64,000 nucleotides of DNA from NCBI GenBank assembly GCA_965207685.1, contig OZ242294.1, forward strand, positions 1,226,677 to 1,290,676. The letters run 5' to 3'. Source of the stretch: Thermodesulfobacteriota bacterium. Lineage in GTDB: Bacteria; Desulfobacterota_D; UBA1144; Nemesobacterales; Nemesobacteraceae. Positions 22,038 to 58,360 of this stretch are shown piece by piece (the first letter of the stretch is position 1; each line of letters starts with the position of its first letter). The notes under the pieces were generated by a model, which had not been told where the DNA came from, searched no databases, and worked only from the letters and a program-made list of their open reading frames with translations. A program made the translations under genes and the position numbers.

Positions 22038-23258
22038 GTGAAATACCTTATACTACAAGGCGACGGCATGCCCGACCACAAGCTCCCAGAACTTGAAGGC
22101 AGGACTCCGCTTGAAGTCGCTGACACCCCTAACCTTGACGCGATCGCCAAGCGGGCCGAGATTTTCGGGATCGCAAAGACCATTCCCGACCCTCTTCCCC
22201 CGGGAAGCGACGTGGGAAACCTCGCGGTGCTTGGCTATGACCCGACGAAATACTACACGGGAAGATCCCCTCTCGAAGCCGCGAGCATAGGCGTCTCGCT
22301 CGGGGAAACGGATGTCACAGTCCGCTGCAACCTGGTAACCCTGAGCGAAGAAAATGGCCACACGGTGATGGAAGACTACAGCGCCGGACACATAGCGGAT
22401 GAGGATGCAGCCAGTATAATCGAGGATCTGAAAAAGGAGTTCGACGGGGAGGAGTTCTCGCTAAGCCAGGGGGTAAGCTACAGGCATCTTCTTCTCTGGC
22501 GAGGAGGAAACAGCGATATTCAAACAACCCCTCCTCATGACATTTCAGGAAAGAAAACCGCCCCATGGCTTCCTTCGGGAGAAGGGGCGGAAAAACTCGT
22601 CATACTCATGGAGAGATCCCGCAAGATACTGAAAGACCATCCCGTGAACAAAAAAAGAAGGACCGAGGGGAAAAACACCGCAGACTCCATATGGCTCTGG
22701 GGCGAAGGGACAAGGCCCGAGATGCCGTCCCTTTCAGAGCTTTACGGGATCACAGGATCCGTCGTATCGGCGGTTGATCTGGTAAAGGGAATAGGAATAT
22801 TCGCCTCGATGGAAGTAATCGAGGTTCCGGGAGCTACCGGGTACCTTGACACAAACTACGCGGGGAAGGTAAGCGGCGCGCTTGAGTCGCTGCAGCGCGT
22901 GGACCTTGCTATGATCCACATAGAGGCGACGGACGAAACGGGTCACGTCGGAGATGCCCGTCTCAAGATACAGGCGGTTGAAGATTTCGACCAGAAGGTA
23001 GTAGGACCCGCACTTGCGGGTATGGAGCAGTTCGGCCAATACAGGGTTCTAGTGCTCTCCGATCATCCAACCCCCATAGACCTGAGAACCCACTCAAACG
23101 AGCCCGTTCCCTTCGCCATACTCGATTCCGCAAACTCTTCGGTAAAAGACAACTCGCTTGTCTACACAGAGGACTGCGCCGCCGCAAGCGGGGTGTTCGT
23201 CAAAGAAGGCTGGAAGCTCATGGGAACACTTGTCGGAAAGCAGTACGTTCAAAGATAG
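22038..23258 (+). CDS. apgM: cofactor-independent phosphoglycerate mutase, archaeal type
   Basis: 406 aa with the metalloenzyme motifs of the ApgM/PF01676 family (LQGDGMPD, HIEATDETGH, LSDHPTP). Confidence 0.75.
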   Translation: MKYLILQGDGMPDHKLPELEGRTPLEVADTPNLDAIAKRAEIFGIAKTIPDPLPPGSDVGNLAVLGYDPTKYYTGRSPLEAASIGVSLGETDVTVRCNLVTLSEENGHTVMEDYSAGHIADEDAASIIEDLKKEFDGEEFSLSQGVSYRHLLLWRGGNSDIQTTPPHDISGKKTAPWLPSGEGAEKLVILMERSRKILKDHPVNKKRRTEGKNTADSIWLWGEGTRPEMPSLSELYGITGSVVSAVDLVKGIGIFASMEVIEVPGATGYLDTNYAGKVSGALESLQRVDLAMIHIEATDETGHVGDARLKIQAVEDFDQKVVGPALAGMEQFGQYRVLVLSDHPTPIDLRTHSNEPVPFAILDSANSSVKDNSLVYTEDCAAASGVFVKEGWKLMGTLVGKQYVQR

Positions 23259-24154
23259 TACTTAAGCCCGACCGTAACGGTCCAGTTGTCTGTGTCATCC
23301 ACCTCGAAATCTGACGTAAGGGGTGTAACTCCGTCGGCGCGCACGGGTTCGTGGTCCCGGACTTGCGTCCAGGACACATCGTCGCGGTCATAACCGCTAA
23401 AGCGCGTCCAGCGGACCTTGGCGCCAACTGAGAAATCGTCGCCAAGCGCGTAATCAACTCCGCCTACTAACTGGAAGCCAAATCTGGTCTTCCCAAGCGC
23501 GGTAGCTAAAGAGCTGGTCGTGCCCTCCGCGGCATCCTGCCACGGCTCCGTTCCCAAATCGCTCTTCCGCAGGAATTTCACCGAGTAGCGCATTTCCGTC
23601 GAGGCTATACCTATACCGGCTCCAACATAAGGCGTAAAAGGTGAGTCGTTGCGCAAGTCGTAGTAGGCGTTCAGGAAGAGATGATGAGCGTTCAGATCAT
23701 ACACACGTTCTGAAGGAGGGTCGTTCTCATCCCATTCGCTAGTCTTCTGATCAAGAGGGTCGTCACTGTCCGAACCGATGCGCACGAGCCTGCTCTCGGA
23801 AGCCTGACGGCGGTTAAGGTACTCCGCTTCAAAGCGCAGCCCGTTGCCAAGCGCATAGCCAAAAGTCGCACCACCCACATACCCCAGGCCGGGGCCAAAA
23901 ACATTCGCAACGGTGGATGCCTTATCGGCCGTACATTCCGCATCAGTCGGCGGAGTCGTACCTGAGGGATAAAGAAGGGAGTCGCACCGGGTCGGGTGAT
24001 TTATAAAGGAATGAGAGACATCCAAGTCTCCCGACTTTGAAAATCCCCCTTCAAGCCCGATATAGAACCTATCCTCAGCCGAAGCTGAAGACGAACCAAA
24101 GATCAAAAGCAAGGCCGCAAGCCAAAAACACGTATTTGCCGCCACATATCTCAT
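23249..24154 (-). CDS. outer-membrane beta-barrel protein (OmpA-like/porin superfamily)
   Basis: Signal peptide (AALLLIFGSSSASA). Alternating amphipathic beta strands and a C-terminal aromatic end (LKYYL). Confidence 0.55.
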   Translation of the reverse strand: MRYVAANTCFWLAALLLIFGSSSASAEDRFYIGLEGGFSKSGDLDVSHSFINHPTRCDSLLYPSGTTPPTDAECTADKASTVANVFGPGLGYVGGATFGYALGNGLRFEAEYLNRRQASESRLVRIGSDSDDPLDQKTSEWDENDPPSERVYDLNAHHLFLNAYYDLRNDSPFTPYVGAGIGIASTEMRYSVKFLRKSDLGTEPWQDAAEGTTSSLATALGKTRFGFQLVGGVDYALGDDFSVGAKVRWTRFSGYDRDDVSWTQVRDHEPVRADGVTPLTSDFEVDDTDNWTVTVGLKYYL

Positions 24155-28714: not shown

Positions 28715-31700
28715 TCAGAAGTTAACCTCCCCTCTCAGCATGACTCCATGCTCCGGCTCAGCAGTATCGCTCTGCCTGCGTTCTGTCTCAAGACTCAGGC
28801 TCGCGGAGCGCCCGAGATCAAGACGGCTTCCAAGCCTGTAGTGCTGCCGCCCGTCTCCGCCGAGCCTCAGGCCGCTGTATGGAGTAAGAAGTCCGTCTCC
28901 GCCGAGAGCAGCAAGCCCATAACCGAATTCCGCGTCAAGGTGCATATCATTGCCCCCGCCATCCTCAGACGAGAGCCCATCCACTCCACGCTCCCAAAGA
29001 CTGTCAACGCCGCTTGAGGTATCTCCCCACTCAGGCGCCACGCTGAACAGCACTCCCCGCTTGTCCGCCCCCGTATCGAAGATCACGGTTCCTCCCACGC
29101 CCCACTGGCTGAACTCCTCCGAGCTGTGTGCCGCAAGCCAGCGTCCCCTGCCCGAAATGCTGAGACCCAAGCTGGGGTTCTCATAGAGGAAACCTCCTCC
29201 TATTTCGACCCCCGTTCCCGTCTCCCCGTCTCCTCCGTCATGGCGAAGCGCTACCTCGACCAAGGGATTAAACCAGGTTCCGGACGCAAACCTGTACTCG
29301 TAGCTTCCCTCCATGCTGAGACGCAGTTGGTGCACGCCGAGCGACATCTCCTCGATCATGTAGTCGTCCCCCTCAACGTCCATCCACACCTTAAACGCCT
29401 CGCTCTTTAGCGAGAAAGTCGTGTCTCCCACGTCAAACACCCTGGCGCTTCCTCCCGCCGCCACCGATTTGTAGCTTAAATCGCTTGTGGCTACCTTCCT
29501 CGCACCCTCGTCGTCTATGTCTATTTGCCCACGCCCGTAGCCAAGCGCACTCCAGAGGTAAACATCTTCCGAGAGGAACCAGGAAACATAAGGAGACACG
29601 CTCACCATCTTGATATAGTAATCGCCCCTTCCTACTTCTCCCGGCGTCGTGTCCGTATAATCGAAATCTCCCTTCGTAAGAGACAGGGAAAGTCCCGTCA
29701 ACACCTTCTCGTTAAGCCACCTGTCAACTCCCATGTAGCCGCTCACGATCCGCCCGTCCCACTTGAACCATTCGTCACTTGCGACCGAAAAATTGTTGTA
29801 ATCCGCCTTGCCCCAGAATCCGATGCTTCCTCTTCTCTCGACGATCACGGGCTTTTGATCCTCGTCAACCCACATGTTGTTATCCGCAGAATCCTCCTGT
29901 GGAGACTCTCCGACGTGTCCTTTCGGGTCTTCTTCCGGATGCTTTCCCACATAGCCGCCTGGATCTTCCTGCGGATGTTCCTTCGGTTTCCTGAGCATAA
30001 CTCCGGCCTCTATTATGAATGAAGACCCGTAAAGCAGCTCCTCGAGGCTGAGAGCTTCCCACTGGTCAGGGTCGTCCCATATATCGGTTCCAATCACTTC
30101 GTGAAGGTTCGCGTGCTGATCCATAAGTCTGAACATCCCCGTACGCTCGTATGATCCCGAAAGCACGCTGTCAAGACGCCAGGTGAGGGCGTCAACCGAA
30201 TTCCTGAGCATGGTTCGCCCGAATGTGGGAAGGATTCTCAGGCTTGCGCGCCTTGCGCGCCGGATCTCTGTAGTGTTCGCCTCGGCCGTTGCTTCGGCTG
30301 AGGGGTCCCCCGGACCTACATCGTTCACCGCGCGCACCCTGAAAGAGTATACGGTGCCGTTTTCAAGGCCCGCGACCGTGTAGCTGGTTTCATTCGTCTC
30401 CCTGGAACCGCTCTGATCTATTGAGGTCCAGCCGCCGTAAGACCCGTTTTCCTCCTTCTGGCTGTACTCGTAACCGGTGATCGGCAGACCGCCGTTATCC
30501 GCAGGCCGCTCCCATACAAGAGTCACGCGCTGGTCCCCCGGCGTCGCTGTCAGATTCCGGGGCGCACCCGGCACTGTGGCGGGCGTTGCGCTTGCTGGCT
30601 CGGAGGCGGGGCCGGGACCAACGCTGTTTACCGCCCGCACCCTGAACCCGTAGGTCTCTCCATTGGTAAGCCCCGTGACGGTGTAGGAGGTGGTCGTTCC
30701 TCCTGTTGAGATCCACTCACCGTCATCAACCTTGTATTCATAACGCTCAATGGAGCTTCCTCCATTATCAGACGCATCCCAGCTAAGAGCTACCTCTCCA
30801 TTGCCCCGTGTCGCCATCAAGTTCCGGGGCGCACCCGGTACAGTGGTAAGCGTAACGCTTGCCGGCTCGGACGCGGGGCCGGGACCAACGCTGTTTACCG
30901 CCCGCACCCTGAACCCGTAGGTCTCTCCATTGGTAAGCCCCGTGACGGTGTAGGAGGTGGTCGTTCCCCCTGTTGAAACCCATGGGCCTCCATCGATCCT
31001 GTATTCGTAGCGTCCAATGGGACTTCCTCCATTATCGGGCGCATCCCAGCTAAGAGCTACCTCGCCATTGCCCCGTGTCCCCTCCAGGTTCCGGGGCGCA
31101 CTAGGTACCGTGGCGGGGGTTGCGCTTGCCGGCTCGGACGCGGGGCCGGGACCAACGCTGTTTACCGCCCGCACCCTGAATCTGTAGGTCTCTCCATTGG
31201 TAAGCCCCGTAACGGTGTAGGAGGTGGTCTTTCCTCCTGTTGAGGTCCACTCGCCGTCATCAACCTTGTATTCGTAGTGTTCAATGGGGCTTCCTCCGTC
31301 ATCGGGCGCATCCCAATTAAGCGTTGCCCTACCGTCCCCACTCATAGCCATCAACCCCGAAGGCGCACCCGGAAGCGCCGACGACGGGACGGGATTTCTC
31401 ACCTGCGAGGGCACTTTCGTATTTGAATCCGGAGATCCATTCTCATTCACGTCGGTCACGTTGATGGTCACCGTGATGGTACCAGTCAAGCCGCCCGGGT
31501 CCCGTGCGGTAACCGTAACCGTATAAATACGCTTGGGCCCCTCGTAGTCAAGGGCCGCCTTTGTCTGTATCTGCCCGGAAGTCTGGTCTTCAAGCGCAAA
31601 GGAAGCCGCATCCGTACCCCCAAGCGAATAGGTGAGACTGCCCCGGTCACCGGAGTCCGGGTCCGTAGCTGTAACCGCCGCACCGATATCTCTTCCAGGC

Positions 31701-33679
31701 GGCGTGTTCTCCGCCACAGAACGCGTGGCCGTGTTGGGCTGGAAGTAAGGCGCATTGTTTGACGGCGGCTCTACACGCGTCACAAGGTCAGAAATTGCGT
31801 ACGCCATTTTCCCGGAACCGCGCCGGTCCGTGTAGGTCACCTTTGCCCTCAGGTAATTGTCCACATCGCCCGATACCGGCGTGTAGGCGTTGCCGTTCGG
31901 GGTCCCGCTTACCGAACCCCAGCCATTCGTCCGGCTGGTTGACTTCTCCCATGTCCACGTTTCACCCGATACTGAACCGTCGGGATCGATTAGAGTCGCT
32001 TCAAGCTCCGTACCCACCTGTGGCTGCCTGGAAGAAAGAGTCACCTCTCCCTCTTCCTCCACATCGGTCACATTAATAGTCACCGTGGTCGTAATTTCCG
32101 AGGTCCTGTCCGTGACTTTAACCACCACGCCCGCATAAGAACTTTTGGTCTCGTAGTCAAGAGGCGCCTTGGTCTTTATCTGCCCGGAGGAATCAATATC
32201 AAATGAAAGTTTAGATACATCATCGAGCGAGTAGATAAGTGTTTCGTTTTCCGGGTCCGTAACCGCAATCGGTGTCCCGATGTCTACTCCAGGCCCCGTG
32301 TTCTCAGCCACAGAAAACATGTCCGGTGGGGGATCAGGATCAAAATAGGGCGCCCAGTTTACTGCCGGCACCTTTCCAGCGGACTCCGCCTCCGCGCTTT
32401 TATCAGGACCGTGGCCATCGGTATAGGAGGCCACCGCCCGCAGGTATTTATCTTCATCGTCTTCAACATTCGGGTCGCTGTCGGCAACCGGCGTGTAGGT
32501 TGCAGTCGTGGAACCGCTGCTCGTGGCACCGGTGATCGGATTCCAGTTGGTTTTGTCAGCTGACCTATACCATGTCCACTCCACATCCGTTATAGAACCG
32601 TCAGGATCAGTCAAAGTCGCAGTCAGCTCCTCATCTATTGCCAGCGTGCCGGACAGGGTCACCGTTCCAGGCTGATCTGGAGGAGGTACGCCTTCCGTCG
32701 TCGCGCTTGCTATGTTTGAAGGATCGCTTGTGCCCTCGGAGTTAATAGCAGAAACCTGGTAATGCCGCGTGTCTCCGGGAGAAAGACCGCTATGTGTATA
32801 CGTCGTGTCTGTATTGCCAGTGTCGTCTTCAAGATTCGTCCAAGAATAATTTGGGGGACCAGATGTTGAGACCTCGATTTTGTAGCCTTCCACGTAGGAG
32901 TTGGGAGCGCGCCACTTAAGCACAATCATGCTCTGCCCTTTAGGTTCCGCTTCCAGGTTCCTAGGCGGATCCGGAGCAGTGATGGAACAGACAACTCCCG
33001 CGTGTTCGAAGCTTCTGCAATTATGGGTGCCGACAGGAGTAGTAGACTGCCCAGCGCCCCTAGGACAATCAATCAGCCTCGTTTCAGTGCCTACGCAGAG
33101 AATATCGTCAAGCCAGAATTCATTGTTAGTCTTGTAGTCGCCCTTGGAAGAATCGATTATTGAAGGGCCGTCAAGCTCTAGCAGCGTCTTCGCGAATTCC
33201 GGCATATAATCCGAATGCTGACCACCTGTATCCTTCAGCTGCTTGCACGCGATTTCTGCGTCTTCGTCGGTGAAATAGTCATCGCATATTCCTCTCCACT
33301 CGGCATCGGTACCGTCATTATAATAAACTTCAAGCCTGCCTATGTCGGCCGTGACCGTACAGCTACTCGTGTTCGTGGTATCGCACAATCGAAGATCCCC
33401 GTTGCTCTGCGCATGCGCAGTTACGGAGAAAAACGCCAGCGGCAACAGTACTGCCAGCAGAAAGCAGACCCTGTCTCTCAGGCTTTCTGTTTTCCCAAGA
33501 AAGGGCGGCGGACGCAGAAACCCCCGCCCCTTCAGACAAAAGAGCGTTAACAGGGTTTCAAGTGCCTTGGTTTTTGCCCGGTTCGGGACTGGCTCAGTCT
33601 TTCTCTCGTCCGGATACGGGGACAAGAGGGATTTTCGCTGGCGCTCTACCGAAGAGACAAGCCGTTTATGTTCCACCAT
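28715..33679 (-). CDS. giant cell-surface protein: signal peptide, SRCR-like domain, FN3, 2x(Ig-like + cadherin repeat), 4x FN3, C-terminal autotransporter-like outer-membrane beta-barrel
   Basis: 1654-aa ORF. The hydrophobic signal segment LLAVLLPLAFFSVTAHA lies ~70 aa into the ORF, so the true start codon is uncertain. The SRCR consensus blocks are GRLEV.YNDG..WRGICDD, FWLDDILCVGTE..L.DCP and HNC...EHAGVVCS. The cadherin-like blocks are VAEN..PG..IG..V.A.DPD...L.YSL...FAID..SG.I.T...LDYE. Four FN3 repeats follow (WDAPDNGGSPI..YEY....GLTNGETY.FRVRAVN). The C-terminal ~520 aa are beta-rich and end in ...RGEVNF. Confidence 0.8.
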   Translation of the reverse strand: MVEHKRLVSSVERQRKSLLSPYPDERKTEPVPNRAKTKALETLLTLFCLKGRGFLRPPPFLGKTESLRDRVCFLLAVLLPLAFFSVTAHAQSNGDLRLCDTTNTSSCTVTADIGRLEVYYNDGTDAEWRGICDDYFTDEDAEIACKQLKDTGGQHSDYMPEFAKTLLELDGPSIIDSSKGDYKTNNEFWLDDILCVGTETRLIDCPRGAGQSTTPVGTHNCRSFEHAGVVCSITAPDPPRNLEAEPKGQSMIVLKWRAPNSYVEGYKIEVSTSGPPNYSWTNLEDDTGNTDTTYTHSGLSPGDTRHYQVSAINSEGTSDPSNIASATTEGVPPPDQPGTVTLSGTLAIDEELTATLTDPDGSITDVEWTWYRSADKTNWNPITGATSSGSTTATYTPVADSDPNVEDDEDKYLRAVASYTDGHGPDKSAEAESAGKVPAVNWAPYFDPDPPPDMFSVAENTGPGVDIGTPIAVTDPENETLIYSLDDVSKLSFDIDSSGQIKTKAPLDYETKSSYAGVVVKVTDRTSEITTTVTINVTDVEEEGEVTLSSRQPQVGTELEATLIDPDGSVSGETWTWEKSTSRTNGWGSVSGTPNGNAYTPVSGDVDNYLRAKVTYTDRRGSGKMAYAISDLVTRVEPPSNNAPYFQPNTATRSVAENTPPGRDIGAAVTATDPDSGDRGSLTYSLGGTDAASFALEDQTSGQIQTKAALDYEGPKRIYTVTVTARDPGGLTGTITVTINVTDVNENGSPDSNTKVPSQVRNPVPSSALPGAPSGLMAMSGDGRATLNWDAPDDGGSPIEHYEYKVDDGEWTSTGGKTTSYTVTGLTNGETYRFRVRAVNSVGPGPASEPASATPATVPSAPRNLEGTRGNGEVALSWDAPDNGGSPIGRYEYRIDGGPWVSTGGTTTSYTVTGLTNGETYGFRVRAVNSVGPGPASEPASVTLTTVPGAPRNLMATRGNGEVALSWDASDNGGSSIERYEYKVDDGEWISTGGTTTSYTVTGLTNGETYGFRVRAVNSVGPGPASEPASATPATVPGAPRNLTATPGDQRVTLVWERPADNGGLPITGYEYSQKEENGSYGGWTSIDQSGSRETNETSYTVAGLENGTVYSFRVRAVNDVGPGDPSAEATAEANTTEIRRARRASLRILPTFGRTMLRNSVDALTWRLDSVLSGSYERTGMFRLMDQHANLHEVIGTDIWDDPDQWEALSLEELLYGSSFIIEAGVMLRKPKEHPQEDPGGYVGKHPEEDPKGHVGESPQEDSADNNMWVDEDQKPVIVERRGSIGFWGKADYNNFSVASDEWFKWDGRIVSGYMGVDRWLNEKVLTGLSLSLTKGDFDYTDTTPGEVGRGDYYIKMVSVSPYVSWFLSEDVYLWSALGYGRGQIDIDDEGARKVATSDLSYKSVAAGGSARVFDVGDTTFSLKSEAFKVWMDVEGDDYMIEEMSLGVHQLRLSMEGSYEYRFASGTWFNPLVEVALRHDGGDGETGTGVEIGGGFLYENPSLGLSISGRGRWLAAHSSEEFSQWGVGGTVIFDTGADKRGVLFSVAPEWGDTSSGVDSLWERGVDGLSSEDGGGNDMHLDAEFGYGLAALGGDGLLTPYSGLRLGGDGRQHYRLGSRLDLGRSASLSLETERRQSDTAEPEHGVMLRGEVNF
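30545..31350. repeat. three tandem near-identical ~267-270 bp units (each encoding one FN3 domain) inside the giant surface-protein gene
   Basis: Near-identical ~110-nt stretches (GCCGGCTCGGACGCGGGGCCGGGACCAACGCTGTTTACCGCCCGCACCCTGAA...) recur at about 30596, 30861 and 31128. The ORF track also shows duplicated frame-shifted peptides at 30495-30716 and 30783-30983. Confidence 0.8.
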
Positions 33680-33884
33680 ATTAGCCGGTCTTTATATGAA
33701 GAATGCGGGGAATCCGAAAAAAAAGACAACCCGACTTTTCTTCAATGATTTTAGGCCTCGCACACGCACATACGAATGCCTGAGACCAAAAGAATCCTTC
33801 CGATTTAATCCGTTAAGGCGAAGCTTCGGTCGAATCGCCTGTTCCTACACAATATATTGTAGTAAAGTGAGTCTGCAGTGTCAA

Positions 33885-34013: not shown

Positions 34014-35207
34014 TTACCCCGTCGCCATCTTCCTTCTCTGTTCAGTTTCTTCCACGAGATTCCCTTCCCTGTCATAAAACCCCAGCCTGCGTTTCCCTTC
34101 ATGAAACACCCCTATGCTCCCATCCTCGTACTCATGCACCGCAACCTTCGCCCTCACGAAGTGATAACGATCCTTAACCGGCGGGATCTGCAAACTCATA
34201 CCCCTGTACCTGACACAATTGTCGTTGCCCACTGCCCTTGTGTGCTTAAGACACAGTATGTCATCCAAACCCACTCCGAGCAGCGGTACGAACGCACTGC
34301 CTTCCTCAGCCGCCGCTACCGCGAAACGCCCGTTGAAATCCCCTATAAAACTCTCCGAGAGAAACCTGTTCGCCTCCTCCATATCCTCTATACCCCTCTC
34401 CTCCAACTCCACAGGCAACCGCCCCTGCAACGTCTTGAACATCCTCTCGCTTCGCCCCCTTGCCTCAGGGGAGTATCCCGGAATCATTAAAACGCCCAGC
34501 TCGGCCATCGCTCTTCCAAACTGCGTGGGATTCTCCTTGTCAACCCGCCCCCCGGCCCGGGGAGTACTCCAGTAATGAGACCCTCTGTCACTGTAGAAAC
34601 TTGAGAATATGCCCTCACTCTCCAATACCTCCCGCACACCCCTCATGCTGCTCTGTGTGCCCTCCTGGGCACAGAAGAAAGCACTGTATATCCGCCCCGT
34701 GGCGTCATCCATGGTCACTACAAGGTCCCACACCTCCCGGGGAACCCACCTGTGAGTGCTCGCATCCTGATGTATCATCTCCCCCTCTCGCTTCTTGCGT
34801 TCCCTCAGCTCCCGGTGCGGCCCGCGGCGGCGCCCCCTGGGAACCGCTCCCGCATCCTGCAGACACCTCTTAACCCAGCTGTAGCCGCGGGTGCCCCCGT
34901 GGCGCTCTGTGTATGCCTCGTAGAAATGCCTTATGTTACGATTCGGATAACAACCCATGTATAGCTCCACTACCTCCGAAACCTCCTGCGGTGAAGCACG
35001 CCGAGGTGATGTCCTGCCCAAGCGCTTGTCCGAAAGTCCTTGTCTTCCCCACGCTTCGTAACGAACCACGTAGCGGCGGAAGGTCCTCTCGCTCATCTCA
35101 AGCTGCTCCCCGGCTTCTGCCTGGGTGAACTCCCTCTGCTTCCATCTGTTGTATACAGACTCAAACCGGTTTGCCCTGACCATCTGCAAATACCTTGACT
35201 GATCCAT
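34014..35207 (-). CDS. DDE transposase (N-terminal HTH + rve/integrase core)
   Basis: 397 aa. HTH region (LEMSERTFRRYVVRY) and DDE residues in the contexts IHQDAS, VTMDDAT and SPEARGRSER. Confidence 0.8.
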   Translation of the reverse strand: MDQSRYLQMVRANRFESVYNRWKQREFTQAEAGEQLEMSERTFRRYVVRYEAWGRQGLSDKRLGRTSPRRASPQEVSEVVELYMGCYPNRNIRHFYEAYTERHGGTRGYSWVKRCLQDAGAVPRGRRRGPHRELRERKKREGEMIHQDASTHRWVPREVWDLVVTMDDATGRIYSAFFCAQEGTQSSMRGVREVLESEGIFSSFYSDRGSHYWSTPRAGGRVDKENPTQFGRAMAELGVLMIPGYSPEARGRSERMFKTLQGRLPVELEERGIEDMEEANRFLSESFIGDFNGRFAVAAAEEGSAFVPLLGVGLDDILCLKHTRAVGNDNCVRYRGMSLQIPPVKDRYHFVRAKVAVHEYEDGSIGVFHEGKRRLGFYDREGNLVEETEQRRKMATG

Positions 35208-43058: not shown

Positions 43059-43132
43059 GCGGGTGTAGCTCAGCTGGCCAGAGCATTGGCTTCCCAAGCC
43101 AAGGGTCGCGGGTTCGAATCCCGTCGCCCGCT
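43059..43132 (+). tRNA. tRNA-Gly (anticodon CCC)
   Basis: Folded by hand: acceptor stem GCGGGTG/CGCCCGC, D-arm GCTCAGCTGGCCAGAGC, anticodon stem TTGGC/GCCAA with loop TTCCCAA (anticodon CCC at 43093-43095), T-arm GCGGGTTCGAATCCCGT, discriminator U. Confidence 0.8.
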
Positions 43133-43245
43133 CTCACTGCCCAAAAACTGTATTTATTCCGGTCATCACGTTAATATCAAATTTGCCCAGTTTCTATTGA
43201 TAATTTGACCTGAGTTCTATTGACAATTTCACCCTTTTTGATAAT

Positions 43246-44559
43246 GTGTTCAGAAAATTATACGGAGAAAAAACGGTGTCTGAACAAGAAGAGATTTTAC
43301 CGCGTCATTTGTCGACGAAACTCGATAAGGCCCTAGATTCGGCAAGAATAGTAAACATTGTAGGTCCTAGACAGGCTGGAAAAACTACATTGGTACGGGA
43401 TTTGCATAAAAACGGCAGATTCATCACGCTTGACGACGAATCAATGCTCATGGCTATAGAAAACGATCCTGGCGGACAACTCGAAAGCCTGACGACTGGA
43501 CTAGAGACGGAACCTCTGATAATTGACGAAATCCAACGCTCAAAGGGGCTAGTTCTGGCGATCAAAAAGAAAGTCGACGGCAATCGCCGTAAAGGTCAGT
43601 TTATCCTGACGGGTTCTTCAAATATTTTCATGTCCCTTGGAGTCGCCGACTCCCTGGCCGGCCGAATGAGAGTGCTCAAGCTATGGCCGCTGACTGTCTC
43701 GGAAATCAGGAAGCGAAACCCTTCGAGGATACTGACGTGGGCCTTGCGGCCTGCACCGAAACTCGCCGCGCTACCAACACCTGAAAAAACGGACCGTAAG
43801 TCTTACATCGACATAATTCTGCGAGGCGGCTTCCCGGAAATTTTCCCCTTGGAGGCAGAAGAACGGCAAGAATATTATCGGGACTATGTTGACGCCATTG
43901 TGGACAGAGATGTGGCCGACGTTCTTCCCGTACGGAAAACGGATGCCCTCCGACGACTTATCAATCAACTGGCCGTGAGAACCGCTATGGAGTTGAACCT
44001 CTCTGAAATCTGCGAACTGGTCGGCGTTCAACGTAACACGCTTGAGCAATACCTCGAGGTGCTCTTGCGCCTGTCCGTGGTAAACAGGCTGGGAGCATGG
44101 GCGTCGGGCGAATCTAGGCGAGAAATCAAAAACGCAAAAAACCACTTTGTAGACACGGGGGTCGCCTGCGCTCTACGCAGACTGACATCCGAGAGTTTTC
44201 ACGCGGACGCAAATCCAGCTGCATTAGGTGGTCTGCTCGAAAGCTTCGTCTATTCAGAGTTGCTACGTTCAGTTCCGTATCAGGATCAGAATTTTCACTT
44301 TTATCACTGGCGAGACAGTCGCGGACGCGAAATAGATATTGTGGCTGAATCCGCAACTCGACTGATCTGCATCGAAGTGAAGGCTTCAACCACGATCTCG
44401 CCTCAGGATTTGAAGCACCTCAAGTGGTTTGCGAAAAAAGGGCCTGGAACCACCAGAGAAGTGATAGGCTTGGTATTTTATCTCGGCCAAGAAAAGCTCA
44501 GCTTCGGAAACGGCATCTTCGCTCTGCCGGTCAGCATACTGTGGAGCACCGTGTCTTAA
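43246..44559 (+). CDS. AAA+ ATPase with DUF4143 C-terminal domain
   Basis: Walker A GPRQAGKTT, Walker B LIIDEIQ, 437 aa. Confidence 0.75.
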   Translation: MFRKLYGEKTVSEQEEILPRHLSTKLDKALDSARIVNIVGPRQAGKTTLVRDLHKNGRFITLDDESMLMAIENDPGGQLESLTTGLETEPLIIDEIQRSKGLVLAIKKKVDGNRRKGQFILTGSSNIFMSLGVADSLAGRMRVLKLWPLTVSEIRKRNPSRILTWALRPAPKLAALPTPEKTDRKSYIDIILRGGFPEIFPLEAEERQEYYRDYVDAIVDRDVADVLPVRKTDALRRLINQLAVRTAMELNLSEICELVGVQRNTLEQYLEVLLRLSVVNRLGAWASGESRREIKNAKNHFVDTGVACALRRLTSESFHADANPAALGGLLESFVYSELLRSVPYQDQNFHFYHWRDSRGREIDIVAESATRLICIEVKASTTISPQDLKHLKWFAKKGPGTTREVIGLVFYLGQEKLSFGNGIFALPVSILWSTVS

Positions 44560-55550: not shown

Positions 55551-56963
55551 ATGGACAAAAAAATAAAGGATGCCAACAGGAAAAACCAAGAAAAGACCCG
55601 GGAGAAAAACCCCTTGATCGGACTCCGCGTAAAGAAACTCAGCGACATCCCTCCGCCCGCGGGAATAGCCATAGGAGAGGGCGTCGCGCTTGACTGCGAT
55701 CCCGAAACAAAGCCCGCCCCGGTAACGGTTCCCGACGCAGACCGCGAGGGACACATATTCACCATGGGCGCCACGCGAAGCGGAAAGACCCGCCTCGCCG
55801 AGGGCATGATAGAGCACGATATAAGGGCGGGGAGAAGCATCCTGTGGATAGACCCCAAGGGGGATAACGCTATTTTCTCAAAAATAGTGGCCACAGCCAG
55901 GGAAACAGGAAGGGAAGAGGATCTTCTTTTCTTCTCCCCGGTTTTTCCCCGCTACTCGGTAAAGATAGACCCTCTCTCTCACTACTTCATGCCCGAGGAG
56001 GTCGTTAACCACGTCGTCTCGGGAGTACGGGTCCGCGAGGAGTTCTACTTCAACATAGCCTACGAGGTGACGCTCGTCGTGGTGCAGGGACTCATGCTGA
56101 TATCGAGATCCCTCGGGGAGCGACCTATGTTCACCTTCCGCAGGATAAAGGAGAACATAGGCTACAGGGAACTCGAGGGCCTTCGCGCCCAGATAGCCGA
56201 GATAGACGATCCCGAGGCGGAGGAGATCCTCATGAACCTCGACCAGATCCTATCCTCTCCCCAGGACTACTTCTCCAAGGTCTCCTCAAGCCTCCGTACC
56301 GTGATAACGTCGCTTAGCTCGGGTTCGGTGGGAGAAATCATCGGCAAGGACACATCAAACCGGTTCATAGAGCGCCTTGAGGCGGGAAAGAGAGTGATAC
56401 TCGTCGTGCAGACAGGCTCACTTCTCACCAGGAAAACGGCGCATATAATGGCGCGGGTGCTTCTCTCCATGGTGCAAAGCTTCGTAGGCAGGGTGCTGGC
56501 TTCTCACCGGAAGATCGACCCTCCCTTAGCAGTGTACGCAGACGAGGCGTCAAATGTCCTTTACTTCGGGATAGACGACCTTTTCAACAAGGCGGGCGGA
56601 GCCGGAGTGTGGATTCACATGCTGACCCAGAGCAAGCAGGATCTCGTGGCCGAACTCGGCCCAGCCTACACGGGCAAGATACTCGACAACACGAACACCA
56701 AGGTAGTTTTCCGCGTTAACGACCCCAACACCGCAGCCTACGCCTCCCGCATGGCCGGGACGAGAAAAAGATTCTCCCCAATAATGAGTCTCGGCGGGGG
56801 TCTCAGCTTGAGGGAGATAGAGGAGAGCAGGGTGCCGCCCGAGAGCTTCCTTAGGCTCGGGCGAAGGGAGTTCTACGCCTTTACCTTCGACGGCATATAC
56901 AGGGGCAGGACCCTCGATGTGAGTCCGTGCGAGGAAATACGGTTCCCGGAGATAAAAAACTGA
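55551..56963 (+). CDS. traD: type IV coupling protein-like ATPase (TraD/TrwB/VirD4 family) without N-terminal transmembrane anchor
   Basis: Walker A GATRSGKT followed by ILWIDPKGD, Walker B VYADEAS, a TQSKQDL sensor, and a TraG-D_C-like NTNTKVVFRVND. The N-terminal 60 aa are charged and not hydrophobic. Confidence 0.7.
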   Translation: MDKKIKDANRKNQEKTREKNPLIGLRVKKLSDIPPPAGIAIGEGVALDCDPETKPAPVTVPDADREGHIFTMGATRSGKTRLAEGMIEHDIRAGRSILWIDPKGDNAIFSKIVATARETGREEDLLFFSPVFPRYSVKIDPLSHYFMPEEVVNHVVSGVRVREEFYFNIAYEVTLVVVQGLMLISRSLGERPMFTFRRIKENIGYRELEGLRAQIAEIDDPEAEEILMNLDQILSSPQDYFSKVSSSLRTVITSLSSGSVGEIIGKDTSNRFIERLEAGKRVILVVQTGSLLTRKTAHIMARVLLSMVQSFVGRVLASHRKIDPPLAVYADEASNVLYFGIDDLFNKAGGAGVWIHMLTQSKQDLVAELGPAYTGKILDNTNTKVVFRVNDPNTAAYASRMAGTRKRFSPIMSLGGGLSLREIEESRVPPESFLRLGRREFYAFTFDGIYRGRTLDVSPCEEIRFPEIKN

Positions 56964-56986
56964 TGAAGGAGAAAAGGAGAACCAAA

Positions 56987-58360
56987 ATGAAGTACCTACC
57001 GCAAGTGGCGATCAGCTGGGAGACGGCAGCCGCGTTTTCGCTTCTCTGCTTCTCCCTGGGCGCGACCTTCTGCGCGCTTGCGCTAAGACGCAGAAGAGAA
57101 AAACGAAGCGGACCCGAGACAATAGAGTTCATAACGGCTTCGGCGGCGAGAGCCTCGCAGAGACAAGACGGCGCAGAATCAGGAACCATAGGAGCTCTCG
57201 CGGAGAGCCTCTGGCTGAGAAGCGATCCCGGGCTTGCGGTGCTCTCGGATTCAGAACCTTTGGTCGTAACCACCTTCAAAAATCCAGAGACCCAAACTTT
57301 CTGGACAGAAGAGATAGAACCCAATCGCCGACTCTTTGAGAAAAGACGCGAACTTGCGGTAATAGAGAGGGTTCTCCTAGAGCTTGATGAACATGGCCTC
57401 TGCTCAAGTGTCGTTTCTGGGGACGGGAAAAGCGCGTTTTTGCCAACTGCAAAGAGATTCTCGCGCGTTACCCTGCTTGACCACTCGCTTCGGGTAGCGC
57501 GGTGCATGAGGGGAATATACGATTCGCTCTACACGGAGAGAATTCTCTACGGGAAGCATCTCATCGCCGCTCTCGCCCACGATGTCGGAAAAATGGAGCA
57601 CCTGCGCCCCGAAGACAAGCGCTACATAAAGGATGACCACGCGGCGGCATCGGCAAGAGCGCTTAACGGTTGGATAATGGAGTGCGGGGGAGAAAAAGCC
57701 GCTTTTGAGTTTCGCTCCGCGGTGGACGCCGTCAGGAACCATCACAGAAGCGCAAACGCACCCGATCCCATTCTGGAGAACCTCAAAAGAGCGGATACGG
57801 CGGCACGGGAGGAGGAATTCTCGGGCGTGCGCAAAAAGCCACGCCCGGCGGCCGCGCCCGACGGCGGCACGGATGCCGAACCACCCGGGTGGCTCCTTCG
57901 CGACATGCCCCAGATACTAAACGACCATGTGGGGCCCGCAATAAACATGGCGGCACTCGAGGAGGCTCCCTTTGCCCGGGCGATCTCCTCCACAAACGGG
58001 ATCGTCTACGTCGATCCCCACTACCTTTTCGACGGCGTTAGGGAGCATATGGAGCGGGAGGAGATAGCGGACATGAGATTTTTCGACCCGTCCCGCCCCG
58101 CGGAGCTTCAGGCAAAGCTCCTGGTAACAAACTCACTTAAATCCCGCAACTGGGTGGGCGAAGGAGTTCGCGACGGCTACTACGCTGCCTTCTGGAATTA
58201 CGAGTATAGGGGGAAGAAGGTAAGAAAAGGCGGTTTCTGGATACCCGTTTTCGCGGAAGCGTTTGAAGTGCCGCTTTCCGAACTTGAAAAAAGAAAAAAC
58301 GCGGAGCTTCGCCGGATCACTTCCGTTGGGCCGTGTCTTGCGCGGGGACGGAAAAAATAA
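56987..58360 (+). CDS. membrane-anchored HD-domain (metal-dependent phosphohydrolase) protein
   Basis: Start at MKYLPQV. It is preceded by GGAGAAAAGGAG and follows the coupling-protein stop. One transmembrane helix (AAAFSLLCFSLGATFCALAL), then HD motifs H...HDVGK. The region upstream of this start is arginine-rich. Confidence 0.55.
   Translation: MKYLPQVAISWETAAAFSLLCFSLGATFCALALRRRREKRSGPETIEFITASAARASQRQDGAESGTIGALAESLWLRSDPGLAVLSDSEPLVVTTFKNPETQTFWTEEIEPNRRLFEKRRELAVIERVLLELDEHGLCSSVVSGDGKSAFLPTAKRFSRVTLLDHSLRVARCMRGIYDSLYTERILYGKHLIAALAHDVGKMEHLRPEDKRYIKDDHAAASARALNGWIMECGGEKAAFEFRSAVDAVRNHHRSANAPDPILENLKRADTAAREEEFSGVRKKPRPAAAPDGGTDAEPPGWLLRDMPQILNDHVGPAINMAALEEAPFARAISSTNGIVYVDPHYLFDGVREHMEREEIADMRFFDPSRPAELQAKLLVTNSLKSRNWVGEGVRDGYYAAFWNYEYRGKKVRKGGFWIPVFAEAFEVPLSELEKRKNAELRRITSVGPCLARGRKK

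What the first reader, a model, noticed from the sequence alone, without database searches (positions are those of the whole stretch)
32980..33405. SRCR-like domain in a bacterial protein
Residues ~93-233 of the giant protein line up block by block with the metazoan scavenger-receptor cysteine-rich consensus. GRLEVYYNDG..WRGICDD matches GRVEV.HNG.WGTVCDD. EFWLDDILCVGTETRLIDCP matches PIWLDDVRCTGTESSLAQCQ. HNCRSFEHAGVVCS matches HNCSHHEDAGVVCS. The Cys spacing is conserved. SRCR domains are overwhelmingly eukaryotic, so a bacterial copy is either a rare lineage-specific family or a horizontal acquisition.
Basis: partly seen in the sequence, partly recalled or inferred. Interest (0 to 1): 0.7.

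Follow-up and report, generated by a model that had tools for sequence, protein, structure and literature searches.

The report
Bacterial autotransporter tipped with SRCR domain

Summary
Residues 93-233 of a 1654-aa minus-strand ORF (28715-33679) form a genuine SRCR domain. Pfam PF00530 scores 48.8 bits against a cutoff of 26.1 (E 9e-13). The AlphaFold model matches only SRCR structures in its top 40 PDB hits (MARCO, TM 0.80). All six group-A cysteines and the acidic cation/ligand-site residues are present.

The host protein is bacterial and chromosomal. It reads: signal peptide, SRCR, FN3, cadherin repeats, four FN3, then a C-terminal autotransporter-type beta-barrel (PF03797). Housekeeping genes flank it. 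It is syntenic in related MAGs labelled Thermodesulfobacteriota. dN/dS in the SRCR part is 0.14-0.35, which indicates purifying selection.

GC and codon usage of the SRCR part are only marginally atypical, near the 5th percentile.

The closest SRCR domains outside the clade are mostly bacterial. In a crude bootstrap tree the sister group is bacterial in 90 of 100 replicates, most often the four SRCRs of another autotransporter. The single best non-clade hit is a choanoflagellate domain.

SRCRs also occur in Myxococcota, Bdellovibrionales and Dehalococcoidia MAGs.

The most likely role is a surface-displayed, Ca2+-dependent tip adhesin. The target and habitat are unknown. Carrying a disulfide-rich domain on a type V passenger is mechanistically odd.

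The parts
28715..33679 (-). Whole gene: 1654-aa surface protein with signal peptide, SRCR, FN3, cadherin/Ig-like repeats, four FN3, linker and a C-terminal beta-barrel
   Evidence: ORF list and translation. Pfam finds fn3 x5, Cadherin x2 and SRCR. Full-length orthologues exist in L002 (1654 aa), P0230 (1472 aa) and L003 (1494 aa).
33856..33884 (-). Promoter-like site (TTGACA-17-TACAAT, 11 of 12 matches), 177 nt upstream of the ATG
   Evidence: Consensus scan. This is a pattern match only, not evidence of function.
33410..33679 (-). N-terminal 90 aa: a conserved extension of about 65 aa, then a Sec-type signal peptide (RDR, hydrophobic VCFLLAVLLPLAFFSVT, AHA|Q)
   Evidence: Read directly from the sequence. 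The extension is conserved with in-frame indels in P0003, P0230 and P0266. No signal-peptide predictor was available.
32981..33403 (-). SRCR domain, aa 93-233 (Pfam envelope aa 114-232 = 32984-33340). It has the group-A six-Cys core (C132, C145, C195, C205, C221, C231), an extra N-terminal pair (C99/C107) and a 20-25 aa insertion after the helix.
   Evidence: Pfam 48.8 bits. PDB sequence hits. AF2 model with pLDDT 74 and pTM 0.75. The Foldseek top 40 are all SRCR. Cys positions. Alignments.
32690..32971 (-). First FN3/Ig-like domain (about aa 237-330)
   Evidence: Pfam fn3 and Ig_Rha78A_N at aa 258-328.
31400..32689 (-). Cadherin / Ig-like repeat region (aa 331-760)
   Evidence: Pfam Cadherin x2 (best stretch 654-742) and Cadherin_FAT4_N at 481-539. 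L003 carries one extra cadherin module here.
30260..31399 (-). Four tandem FN3 domains (aa 761-1140). Three are near-identical (267-bp tandem array at 30555-31315).
   Evidence: Pfam fn3. Tandem Repeats Finder: 2.9 copies, 87% matches. Copy number varies among orthologues.
29825..30259 (-). Linker (aa 1141-1285): a predicted long alpha-helix (aa 1145-1173), then a low-confidence H/P/E-rich segment
   Evidence: AF2 model m467d0a8acc7e has a helix at 2-30 of the 511-aa piece and pLDDT below 50 for 33-73 and 115-135.
28718..29824 (-). C-terminal outer-membrane beta-barrel of autotransporter type (aa 1286-1654), ending ...VNF
   Evidence: Pfam PF03797 Autotransporter gives 35 bits against a cutoff of 26, E 1.7e-8, when the C-terminus is scanned alone. 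Most of about 100 homologues carry PF03797. The AF2 model shows about 18 long strands. Best Foldseek hits are the BrkA, Hbp, EspP, NalP and AIDA-I beta-domains.

Best explanation
The region encodes a genuine SRCR domain at the N-terminal, cell-distal tip of the passenger of a type-V (autotransporter-like) outer-membrane protein. The bacterium is closely related to MAGs that NCBI labels Thermodesulfobacteriota.

Shown here:
- SRCR family membership and fold.
- The six-Cys group-A pattern.
- Retention of the residues that coordinate the two exposed cations in SALSA/DMBT1 SRCR8. D1019/D1020/E1086 and D1020/D1058/D1059/N1081 map to D133, D134, E225, D191, D192 and N220.
- The C-terminal autotransporter-type barrel.
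- Purifying selection, and chromosomal synteny in related genomes.

Inferred:
- The protein is exported by Sec and its barrel inserts into the outer membrane.
- The FN3/cadherin stalk holds the SRCR away from the cell.
- The SRCR binds anionic ligands (polysaccharide, matrix, or other cell surfaces) through bridging Ca2+, as animal SRCRs do. That would make the protein a tip adhesin.
- Evolutionarily, the domain belongs to a bacterial SRCR lineage that moves among autotransporter passengers. It is not a recent capture from an animal.
For: - SRCR identity: Pfam E 9.3e-13. PDB phmmer hits to neurotrypsin, MARCO, CD163 and DMBT1. AF2 model plus Foldseek, with all top-40 hits SRCR and MARCO at TM 0.80, rmsd 2.3.
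- Cysteines: every Cys of the mature protein lies in the SRCR. The six canonical Cys fall in invariant or near-invariant columns of a 58-sequence alignment.
- Cation-site residues: defined in PMC7043408, present here, and nearly invariant among bacterial SRCRs.
- Barrel: PF03797 at 35 bits. A family of about 100 homologues carries FN3, Calx-beta or cadherin passengers. The fold matches autotransporter beta-domains.
- Selection: dN/dS in the SRCR is 0.14 against L002 and 0.35 against L003.
- Synteny with AnmK, GH3, SSF, Fer4 and ACCA.
- Bacterial affinity: best single-domain scores are 40-53 bits for bacterial SRCRs and at most 31.7 for 30 named metazoan proteins. In NJ bootstraps the sister group is bacterial in 90 of 100 replicates, and is the P0306 autotransporter SRCRs in 62 of 100.
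- P0306 and P0269/P0379 are further SRCR-bearing autotransporters.
Against: - No ligand, expression or localisation data exist, so the binding role rests on analogy with animal SRCRs.
- The site-1 residue equivalent to SALSA D1023 is Thr here, and the usual ED of EDAGV is EH.
- Type V passengers are normally Cys-poor, and large disulfide loops impede their secretion (established knowledge). Eight Cys with predicted loops of about 86-89 residues is awkward for this route.
- The predicted barrel has about 18 strands rather than the classical 12. PF03797 did not appear when the full-length protein was scanned.
- The copy in a sister lineage is broken by IS elements (L003 has lost its signal peptide; L001 is split). 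Several metagenomic copies look frameshifted. The gene is therefore dispensable in some lineages.
- The single best non-clade hit is in a 90% cluster with a choanoflagellate protein (56.3 bits), so the ultimate origin is unresolved.
- The tree is crude: NJ on 106 columns.
Confidence: 0.55

Rival explanations
1. Recent horizontal capture of an SRCR exon-like module from an animal host such as a sponge or coral. The module would act as a mimic or decoy of host pattern-recognition receptors, so the bacterium is tolerated rather than phagocytosed.
For: SRCRs are overwhelmingly eukaryotic: thousands of eukaryotic hits appear. The passenger is built from animal-like modules (FN3, cadherin). The SRCR segment has somewhat lower GC (0.506 against 0.547) and GC3 (0.553 against 0.635) than the background, near the 5th percentile. 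IS-rich loci are typical of host-associated bacteria. Host SRCR expansion in sponges is documented (PMC4772301 abstract; PMC4850255).
Against: Identity to any named metazoan SRCR is at most about 36%, and the best single-domain score is 31.7 bits, against 40-53 bits for bacterial SRCRs. The sister group is bacterial in 90 of 100 bootstraps. The compositional deviation is marginal and extends to the neighbouring FN3. The domain was already present before the window and L003 lineages diverged (dS about 0.57-0.65). The habitat of the MAGs could not be established with these tools.
Confidence: 0.12
2. The SRCR tip targets other microbes rather than a host. It would bind LPS, teichoic acid or capsule of neighbouring bacteria for aggregation, biofilm building or prey capture. 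That is the same chemistry animal SRCRs use to bind bacteria.
For: Other bacterial SRCRs sit in predatory or social lineages: Bdellovibrionales (5 SRCR + 6 cadherin + LRR), Myxococcota and Archangium. The cation/anion-binding residues are retained. Cadherin and FN3 stalks are common in Ca2+-dependent bacterial adhesins (established knowledge).
Against: Nothing in the window points to predation. The lifestyle of this Thermodesulfobacteriota-labelled lineage is unknown. No binding data exist.
Confidence: 0.25
3. The gene is a decaying relic with no current function in this genome.
For: L003 has lost the signal-peptide coding region to an IS insertion, and L001 is split by an IS. P0003, P0266 and P0304 end in frameshift-like sequence. 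An IS-like HTH ORF lies immediately upstream in the window.
Against: The window, L002 and P0230 each keep an uninterrupted ORF of 1472-1654 codons. dN/dS is 0.13-0.29 across all domains against L002. A near-consensus promoter-like site lies upstream. The frameshifts may be long-read assembly errors.
Confidence: 0.08
4. This is not a true SRCR: it is either a chance or convergent Cys-rich similarity, or eukaryotic contamination or a chimeric assembly.
For: None beyond the prior rarity of bacterial SRCRs.
Against: Profile, sequence and fold evidence all agree. The domain is in frame within a single ORF that ends in a bacterial autotransporter barrel. It is reproduced in at least four independent assemblies with conserved bacterial neighbours. 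The flanks are bacterial housekeeping genes: S1, AroA, PurH, GlnD and ACCase.
Confidence: 0.01

Closest known systems
Group A SRCR domains of animal scavenger receptors (MARCO, SR-AI/SCARA1, SCARA5, Mac-2 binding protein)
   Same: Same fold: Foldseek TM is 0.80 to MARCO 2oy3 and 0.70 to M2BP 1by2. Same six-Cys pattern, lacking the group-B pair. The CDD, LDD, HNC and E residues of the acidic cation/ligand site are conserved.
   Different: About 135 aa instead of about 100-110, with a 20-25 aa low-confidence insertion after the helix. There is an extra N-terminal Cys pair (C99/C107) in place of the RLVGG strand. WRG replaces WGT and EH replaces ED. The domain is carried by a bacterial outer-membrane protein instead of a collagenous type II membrane receptor.
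SALSA/DMBT1/gp340 SRCR domains (group B), cation-dependent pattern recognition (PMC7043408)
   Same: The residues of cation sites 2 and 3, which mediate Ca2+-dependent binding of hydroxyapatite, heparin and bacterial proteins, are all present.
   Different: The window domain lacks the group-B C1-C4 disulfide. The site-1 Asp (D1023) is Thr here. Sequence similarity is weak (E 2.5e-7 to DMBT1 SRCR11).
Classical type Va autotransporter adhesins and proteases (BrkA, Hbp, EspP, NalP, AIDA-I)
   Same: C-terminal PF03797 beta-domain. Best structural matches are these barrels. There is an N-terminal signal peptide with a long extension, a terminal Phe, and a large modular passenger.
   Different: The passenger is a string of Ig-like, FN3 and cadherin modules tipped by a disulfide-rich SRCR, instead of a beta-helix. 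The predicted barrel region is about 370 aa with about 18 strands, against 12 strands in about 260 aa. No sequence-level PDB hit was found.
Other bacterial SRCR-bearing proteins found here (P0306: 4 SRCR + Calx-beta + Autotransporter; P0269/P0379: 4 SRCR + Big_12 + the same barrel family; Bdellovibrionales L006; Myxococcota L007-L012; Dehalococcoidia L005)
   Same: SRCR occurs in large secreted or surface bacterial proteins. P0306 shares the N-terminal LCD..C Cys pair and is the most frequent sister group in bootstraps.
   Different: Those proteins carry several tandem canonical-length SRCRs. The window clade carries one enlarged SRCR at the extreme N-terminus. None of these proteins has a name or a published description that I could find.
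Eukaryotic-like proteins (ankyrin, TPR, LRR, FN3, cadherin) of sponge and other animal symbionts
   Same: Animal-type extracellular modules in a bacterial surface protein, in IS-rich loci.
   Different: SRCR does not appear among bacterial eukaryotic-like proteins in the papers I could search. Host association of this organism is not established.

Membership tests
SRCR domain superfamily (Pfam PF00530) | Profile-HMM score above the curated gathering threshold | tested here: met
   48.8 bits against a cutoff of 26.1, E 9.3e-13, profile positions 9-100 of 100. The orthologue P0230 scores 58.9 bits.
SRCR domain superfamily (Pfam PF00530) | SRCR fold: a curved beta-sheet cradling one alpha-helix | tested here: met
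   AF2 model with pLDDT 74.4 and pTM 0.75. The Foldseek PDB top 40 are all SRCR domains. MARCO 2oy3 gives TMt 0.80 and rmsd 2.3.
SRCR domain superfamily (Pfam PF00530) | Six conserved cysteines at canonical positions (group A pattern) | tested here: met
   C132, C145, C195, C205, C221 and C231 fall in invariant or near-invariant Cys columns of alignment A4.
SRCR domain superfamily (Pfam PF00530) | Disulfide connectivity (C132-C221, C145-C231, C195-C205 expected) | not testable with these tools
   Model coordinates are not returned, so S-S distances could not be measured. The connectivity is inferred by homology only.
SRCR group B | Additional C1-C4 disulfide: a Cys before GRxEV and a Cys in the LGCG motif | tested here: not met
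   There is no Cys at either position (DIGRLEV; QLKDTGG). The extra pair C99/C107 lies elsewhere.
SRCR domain superfamily (Pfam PF00530) | Conserved acidic cation/ligand-binding cluster (SALSA sites 2 and 3) | tested here: met
   D133, D134, E225, D191, D192 and N220 align with D1019, D1020, E1086, D1058, D1059 and N1081. Cation binding itself was not tested.
Type Va (classical) autotransporter | C-terminal Autotransporter beta-domain (PF03797) | tested here: met
   35 bits against a cutoff of 26, E 1.7e-8, with the C-terminal 511 aa scanned alone. It is not listed in the full-length scan. Most homologues are pre-annotated PF03797.
Type Va (classical) autotransporter | 12-stranded barrel plugged by an alpha-helical linker | tested here: inconclusive
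   DSSP of the AF2 model shows about 18 long strands over about 370 aa. A helix lies about 110 residues upstream of the first strand. TMt is only 0.51-0.66 to 12-strand barrels. No coordinates are available to count strands in 3D.
Type Va (classical) autotransporter | Sec signal peptide and a C-terminal aromatic residue | tested here: met
   By inspection: RDR, a 17-residue hydrophobic core, then AHA|Q at aa 88-91, and a C-terminal ...VNF. No predictor was run.
Type Va (classical) autotransporter | Passenger poor in cysteines, with no large disulfide loops (an empirical rule) | tested here: not met
   Eight Cys are confined to the SRCR, with expected loops of about 86-89 residues.
Eukaryotic-like proteins of animal symbionts | The organism is host-associated | not testable with these tools
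   Record titles give only the MAG taxon. No sample metadata were available.

The most novel reading that the evidence does not exclude
A distinct bacterial lineage of SRCR domains exists. It has the group-A core, often an extra N-terminal disulfide, and enlarged variable loops. It circulates between phyla as the ligand-binding head of autotransporter passengers. These proteins manage to export a domain with three or four disulfides through a type V pathway, perhaps with the help of an enlarged barrel of about 16-18 strands. The SRCR would then be a shared bacterial and eukaryotic pattern-binding module rather than an animal invention. It would also break the rule that autotransporter passengers must be disulfide-poor.
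Probability: 0.3. Interest if true: 0.7.

Novelty: new variant of a known kind. Interest (0 to 1): 0.5.

Why it matters
SRCR domains are treated as an ancient module of eukaryotic, mainly animal, innate immunity. A conserved, selected bacterial SRCR lineage mounted on autotransporters would matter in three ways:

- It would give an experimentally tractable bacterial SRCR for studying the Ca2+-dependent ligand mechanism.
- It would reopen the question of where the fold originated and in which direction it was transferred.
- It would pose a concrete secretion problem: how does a multi-disulfide domain get out through type V secretion?

If the organisms turn out to be animal symbionts, the protein would also be a candidate mediator or mimic of host recognition.

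Tried and rejected
- Reading the coordinates on the + strand gives only stops. The feature is on the minus strand.
- The word-indexed homologue search with the domain alone found only 4 close fragments.
- Alignment A1 was too ragged for a genome scan. The trimmed A2 worked.
- The full-length Pfam scan did not list Autotransporter. Scanning the C-terminus alone did.
- The PDB sequence search of the C-terminus found nothing meaningful. The fold search was needed.
- NCBIfam gave no useful hit.
- The composition test shows the SRCR only at about the 5th percentile, so it was rejected as evidence for recent transfer.
- Literature searches for SRCR with Myxococc*, autotransporter, eukaryotic-like or HGT found only host-side SRCR papers.
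- Habitat could not be determined. The Desulfobacterota/sponge literature search was uninformative. The look-up of encoding contigs had no record for the window protein.
- The afdb50 fold library was unavailable.
- My interim claim that bacterial SRCRs are closer than any eukaryotic one had to be softened. The best non-clade hit, P0295, clusters at 90% with a Helgoeca nana (choanoflagellate) protein.
- Chance similarity and contamination or chimera were considered and rejected.
Full report
**1. Observation**

The coordinates 32980-33405 read as nonsense on the + strand. They lie inside a 1654-codon ORF on the minus strand, 28715..33679. Residues 93-233 map to window 32981-33403.

The match is not a chance resemblance:
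- Pfam SRCR (PF00530) scores 48.8 bits against a gathering cutoff of 26.1, E = 9.3e-13, covering profile positions 9-100 of 100.
- phmmer against PDB sequences recovers only SRCR proteins, including the single-domain entries neurotrypsin (4.4e-10) and MARCO (1.3e-8).
- An AlphaFold2 model built on a 58-sequence alignment has mean pLDDT 74.4 and pTM 0.75. It is confident everywhere except the insertion.
- The model's 40 best Foldseek matches in the PDB are all SRCR domains. MARCO 2oy3 gives TM 0.80 and rmsd 2.3 Å; M2BP gives TM 0.70.

**2. Anatomy of the domain**

The mature protein has eight cysteines, and all eight are in this domain: 99, 107, 132, 145, 195, 205, 221 and 231. The last six fall in the invariant or near-invariant Cys columns of the alignment. 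They give the group-A pattern. The two group-B positions carry no Cys.

By homology the expected pairs are 132-221, 145-231 and 195-205. I could not verify this because model coordinates are not returned.

Several features are specific to this clade:
- The pair C99/C107 replaces the usual RLVGG strand. It is shared with the first SRCR of another bacterial autotransporter, P0306.
- A 20-25 residue insertion follows the helix (QLKDTGGQHSDYMPEFAKTLLELDGPSIIDSSKGDYKTNNE). It has low pLDDT and varies in length among orthologues.
- The C5-C6 and C6-C7 loops are also variable.

In SALSA/DMBT1 SRCR8 the exposed cations are coordinated by D1019/D1020/E1086 and by D1020/D1058/D1059/N1081, and mutating D1019 or D1020 abolishes binding of all ligands tested (PMC7043408). 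The equivalent residues here are all present: D133, D134, E225, D191, D192 and N220. They are invariant or nearly so across the bacterial SRCRs I aligned. The buried site 1 is only partly kept: Thr replaces D1023, while D140 is kept for D1026.

**3. The protein and its genomic setting**

Pfam finds, after the SRCR, five FN3 and two cadherin domains. The last 511 residues, scanned alone, hit the Autotransporter beta-domain PF03797 at 35 bits against a cutoff of 26, E 1.7e-8.

About 100 homologues of that C-terminal region exist in metagenomes. Most are pre-annotated PF03797, with passengers made of FN3, Calx-beta, cadherin, He_PIG or Big_9 modules. One is named by NCBI as an autotransporter outer membrane beta-barrel domain-containing protein.

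An AF2 model of this region (pLDDT 75) shows a long helix followed by about 18 long beta-strands. Its best PDB matches are the BrkA, Hbp, EspP, NalP and AIDA-I translocators, with TM to target up to 0.66.

The N-terminus has a conserved extension of about 65 aa followed by a Sec-type signal peptide (RDR, hydrophobic core, AHA|Q; read from the sequence). A near-consensus sigma-70-like site lies 177 nt upstream.

The neighbours are bacterial housekeeping genes: ACCase carboxyltransferase, M24 peptidase, MazG, phosphoglycerate mutase, ferredoxin, an SSF transporter, GH3, AnmK, ribosomal protein S1, AroA, PurH and GlnD. This is a bacterial chromosome. It is neither contamination nor a chimera.

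**4. Relatives and selection**

A scan of 185,579 species-representative genomes with two peptide patterns found 11 loci:
- Two syntenic orthologues in MAGs labelled Thermodesulfobacteriota: L002 at 93% identity and L003 at 65%.
- Distant SRCRs in Dehalococcoidia, Bdellovibrionales, several Myxococcota and two unclassified MAGs.

Eleven is a lower bound, because only two patterns were used. The architectures of those others confirm real SRCRs in large secreted bacterial proteins. One example is a Bdellovibrionales protein with 5 SRCR, 6 cadherin and LRR domains.

Orthologue comparison shows a fixed SRCR head and barrel with a fluid stalk. FN3 number varies, and L003 has an extra cadherin module.

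| Comparison | SRCR dN/dS | Whole-gene dN/dS |
|---|---|---|
| window vs L002 | 0.14 | 0.20 |
| window vs L003 | 0.35 | 0.25 |

These values indicate purifying selection. In the sister lineage, however, the gene is damaged. In L003 an IS sits inside the signal-peptide coding region. In L001 a second IS splits the gene.

**5. Origin**

| Measure | SRCR segment | Window ORFs |
|---|---|---|
| GC | 0.506 | 0.547 |
| GC3 | 0.553 | 0.635 |
| Codon-preference score | -0.01 | 0.107 |

Each value sits near the 5th percentile of equal-sized background chunks, and the adjacent FN3 behaves similarly. This is marginal and gives no clear sign of recent import.

An exhaustive HMMER search of 1.84 billion representatives found 3131 proteins at E ≤ 1e-3. 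I re-ranked the top 150 by best single domain:
- The closest non-clade hit is P0295 at 56.3 bits. It is in a 90% cluster with a Helgoeca nana (choanoflagellate) protein that has 12 SRCRs and a C-type lectin domain.
- Demonstrably bacterial proteins follow: L004 52.6, P0269 51.7, L005 45.0 and P0306 40.3 bits.
- Thirty named metazoan proteins reach at most 31.7 bits.

A crude NJ analysis used 106 columns, BLOSUM62 distances and 100 bootstraps:
- The window clade is monophyletic in 100 of 100 replicates.
- Its sister group is bacterial in 90 of 100.
- The sister is most often (62 of 100) the four SRCRs of P0306, itself an autotransporter with Calx-beta.
- P0269/P0379, which has four SRCRs and the same barrel family as the window protein, comes next.
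- The Bdellovibrionales SRCRs instead nest among metazoan ones.

My reading is that there has been more than one entry into bacteria. The window's domain belongs to an older lineage associated with bacterial autotransporters. The direction of the ultimate transfer is unresolved.

**6. Mechanism**

Shown: a bona fide SRCR with an intact cation/ligand site, at the N-terminal end of a modular passenger attached to an autotransporter-type barrel, under purifying selection.

Inferred: Sec export, barrel insertion, display of an FN3/cadherin stalk with the SRCR distal, and Ca2+-bridged binding of anionic ligands.

The target is open. It could be host matrix or glycans, or other microbial envelopes. 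Animal SRCRs bind bacteria, and several bacterial SRCR carriers are predatory or social lineages.

One point remains unexplained. Autotransporter passengers are normally Cys-poor, because large disulfide-bonded loops block translocation (established knowledge, not tested here). Yet this protein, P0306 and P0269 all combine SRCRs with such barrels. The unusually large predicted barrel may be relevant.

**7. Known or new**

The SRCR fold and its ligand mechanism are known. The metagenomic proteins already carry automatic PF00530 labels, so databases have already labelled them. I found no paper that describes bacterial SRCRs or SRCR-autotransporters, and the proteins are unnamed in their sources.

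I rate this a new variant of a known kind. Interest is moderate at 0.5. The finding is real and somewhat surprising, but it rests on domain annotation and inference. Habitat, ligand and secretion route are all untested.

Noticed in passing
window 34014-35207 (-): A 397-aa ORF with an HTH_28 domain lies between the ferredoxin gene and the giant gene. It is absent from the same position in the syntenic locus L002, so it is probably an IS/transposase insertion just upstream of the promoter region.
   Followed up: partly
window 30555-31315: A 267-bp tandem array (2.9 copies, 87% matches) encodes near-identical FN3 modules. FN3 copy number differs among orthologues: 5 in the window and L002, 3 in P0230, fewer in L003. 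L003 instead has an extra cadherin module.
   Followed up: partly
L003 4466-5968; L001 9586-12096: In the sister lineage an IS sits inside the signal-peptide coding region (L003), and a second IS (DDE_3/HTH) splits the gene after the first FN3 (L001). The copy there is probably inactivated. Several metagenomic fragments (P0003, P0266, P0304) end in frameshift-like sequence.
   Followed up: partly
window 33410-33679 (-) and 33856-33884 (-): A conserved extension of about 65 aa precedes the signal-peptide hydrophobic core (MVEHKRLVSSVERQRK...). It is conserved with in-frame indels in diverged copies, so it is probably translated. It is reminiscent of, but not homologous to, the extended signal peptide region of some autotransporters. 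A TTGACA-17-TACAAT site lies 177 nt upstream.
   Followed up: partly
window 29900-30050 (-), aa about 1215-1260: An imperfect His/Pro/Glu-rich repeat (PKEHPQEDPGGYVGKHPEEDPKGHVGESPQED) lies in the low-confidence linker between the helix and the barrel. It is variable among orthologues.
   Followed up: no
window 43059-44559 and 55551-58360: tRNA-Gly(CCC) is followed immediately by an AAA_14/DUF4143 ATPase ORF. Further on there is a TraG-D_C (coupling-protein-like) ORF and two ORFs with no Pfam hit. GC dips to 0.48-0.50 around 40-42 kb and 52-56 kb. This may be an integrated mobile element.
   Followed up: no
L006 1210-7227 (Bdellovibrionales MAG OZ245336.1): A 2006-aa protein has 5 canonical SRCRs, 6 cadherins and LRRs. 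Its SRCRs cluster among metazoan domains in the NJ tree, which suggests a separate and more recent acquisition than the window's lineage.
   Followed up: partly
window 23249-24154 (-): A separate small outer-membrane beta-barrel protein (OMP_b-brl / Opacity family) is encoded 4.5 kb from the giant gene.
   Followed up: no
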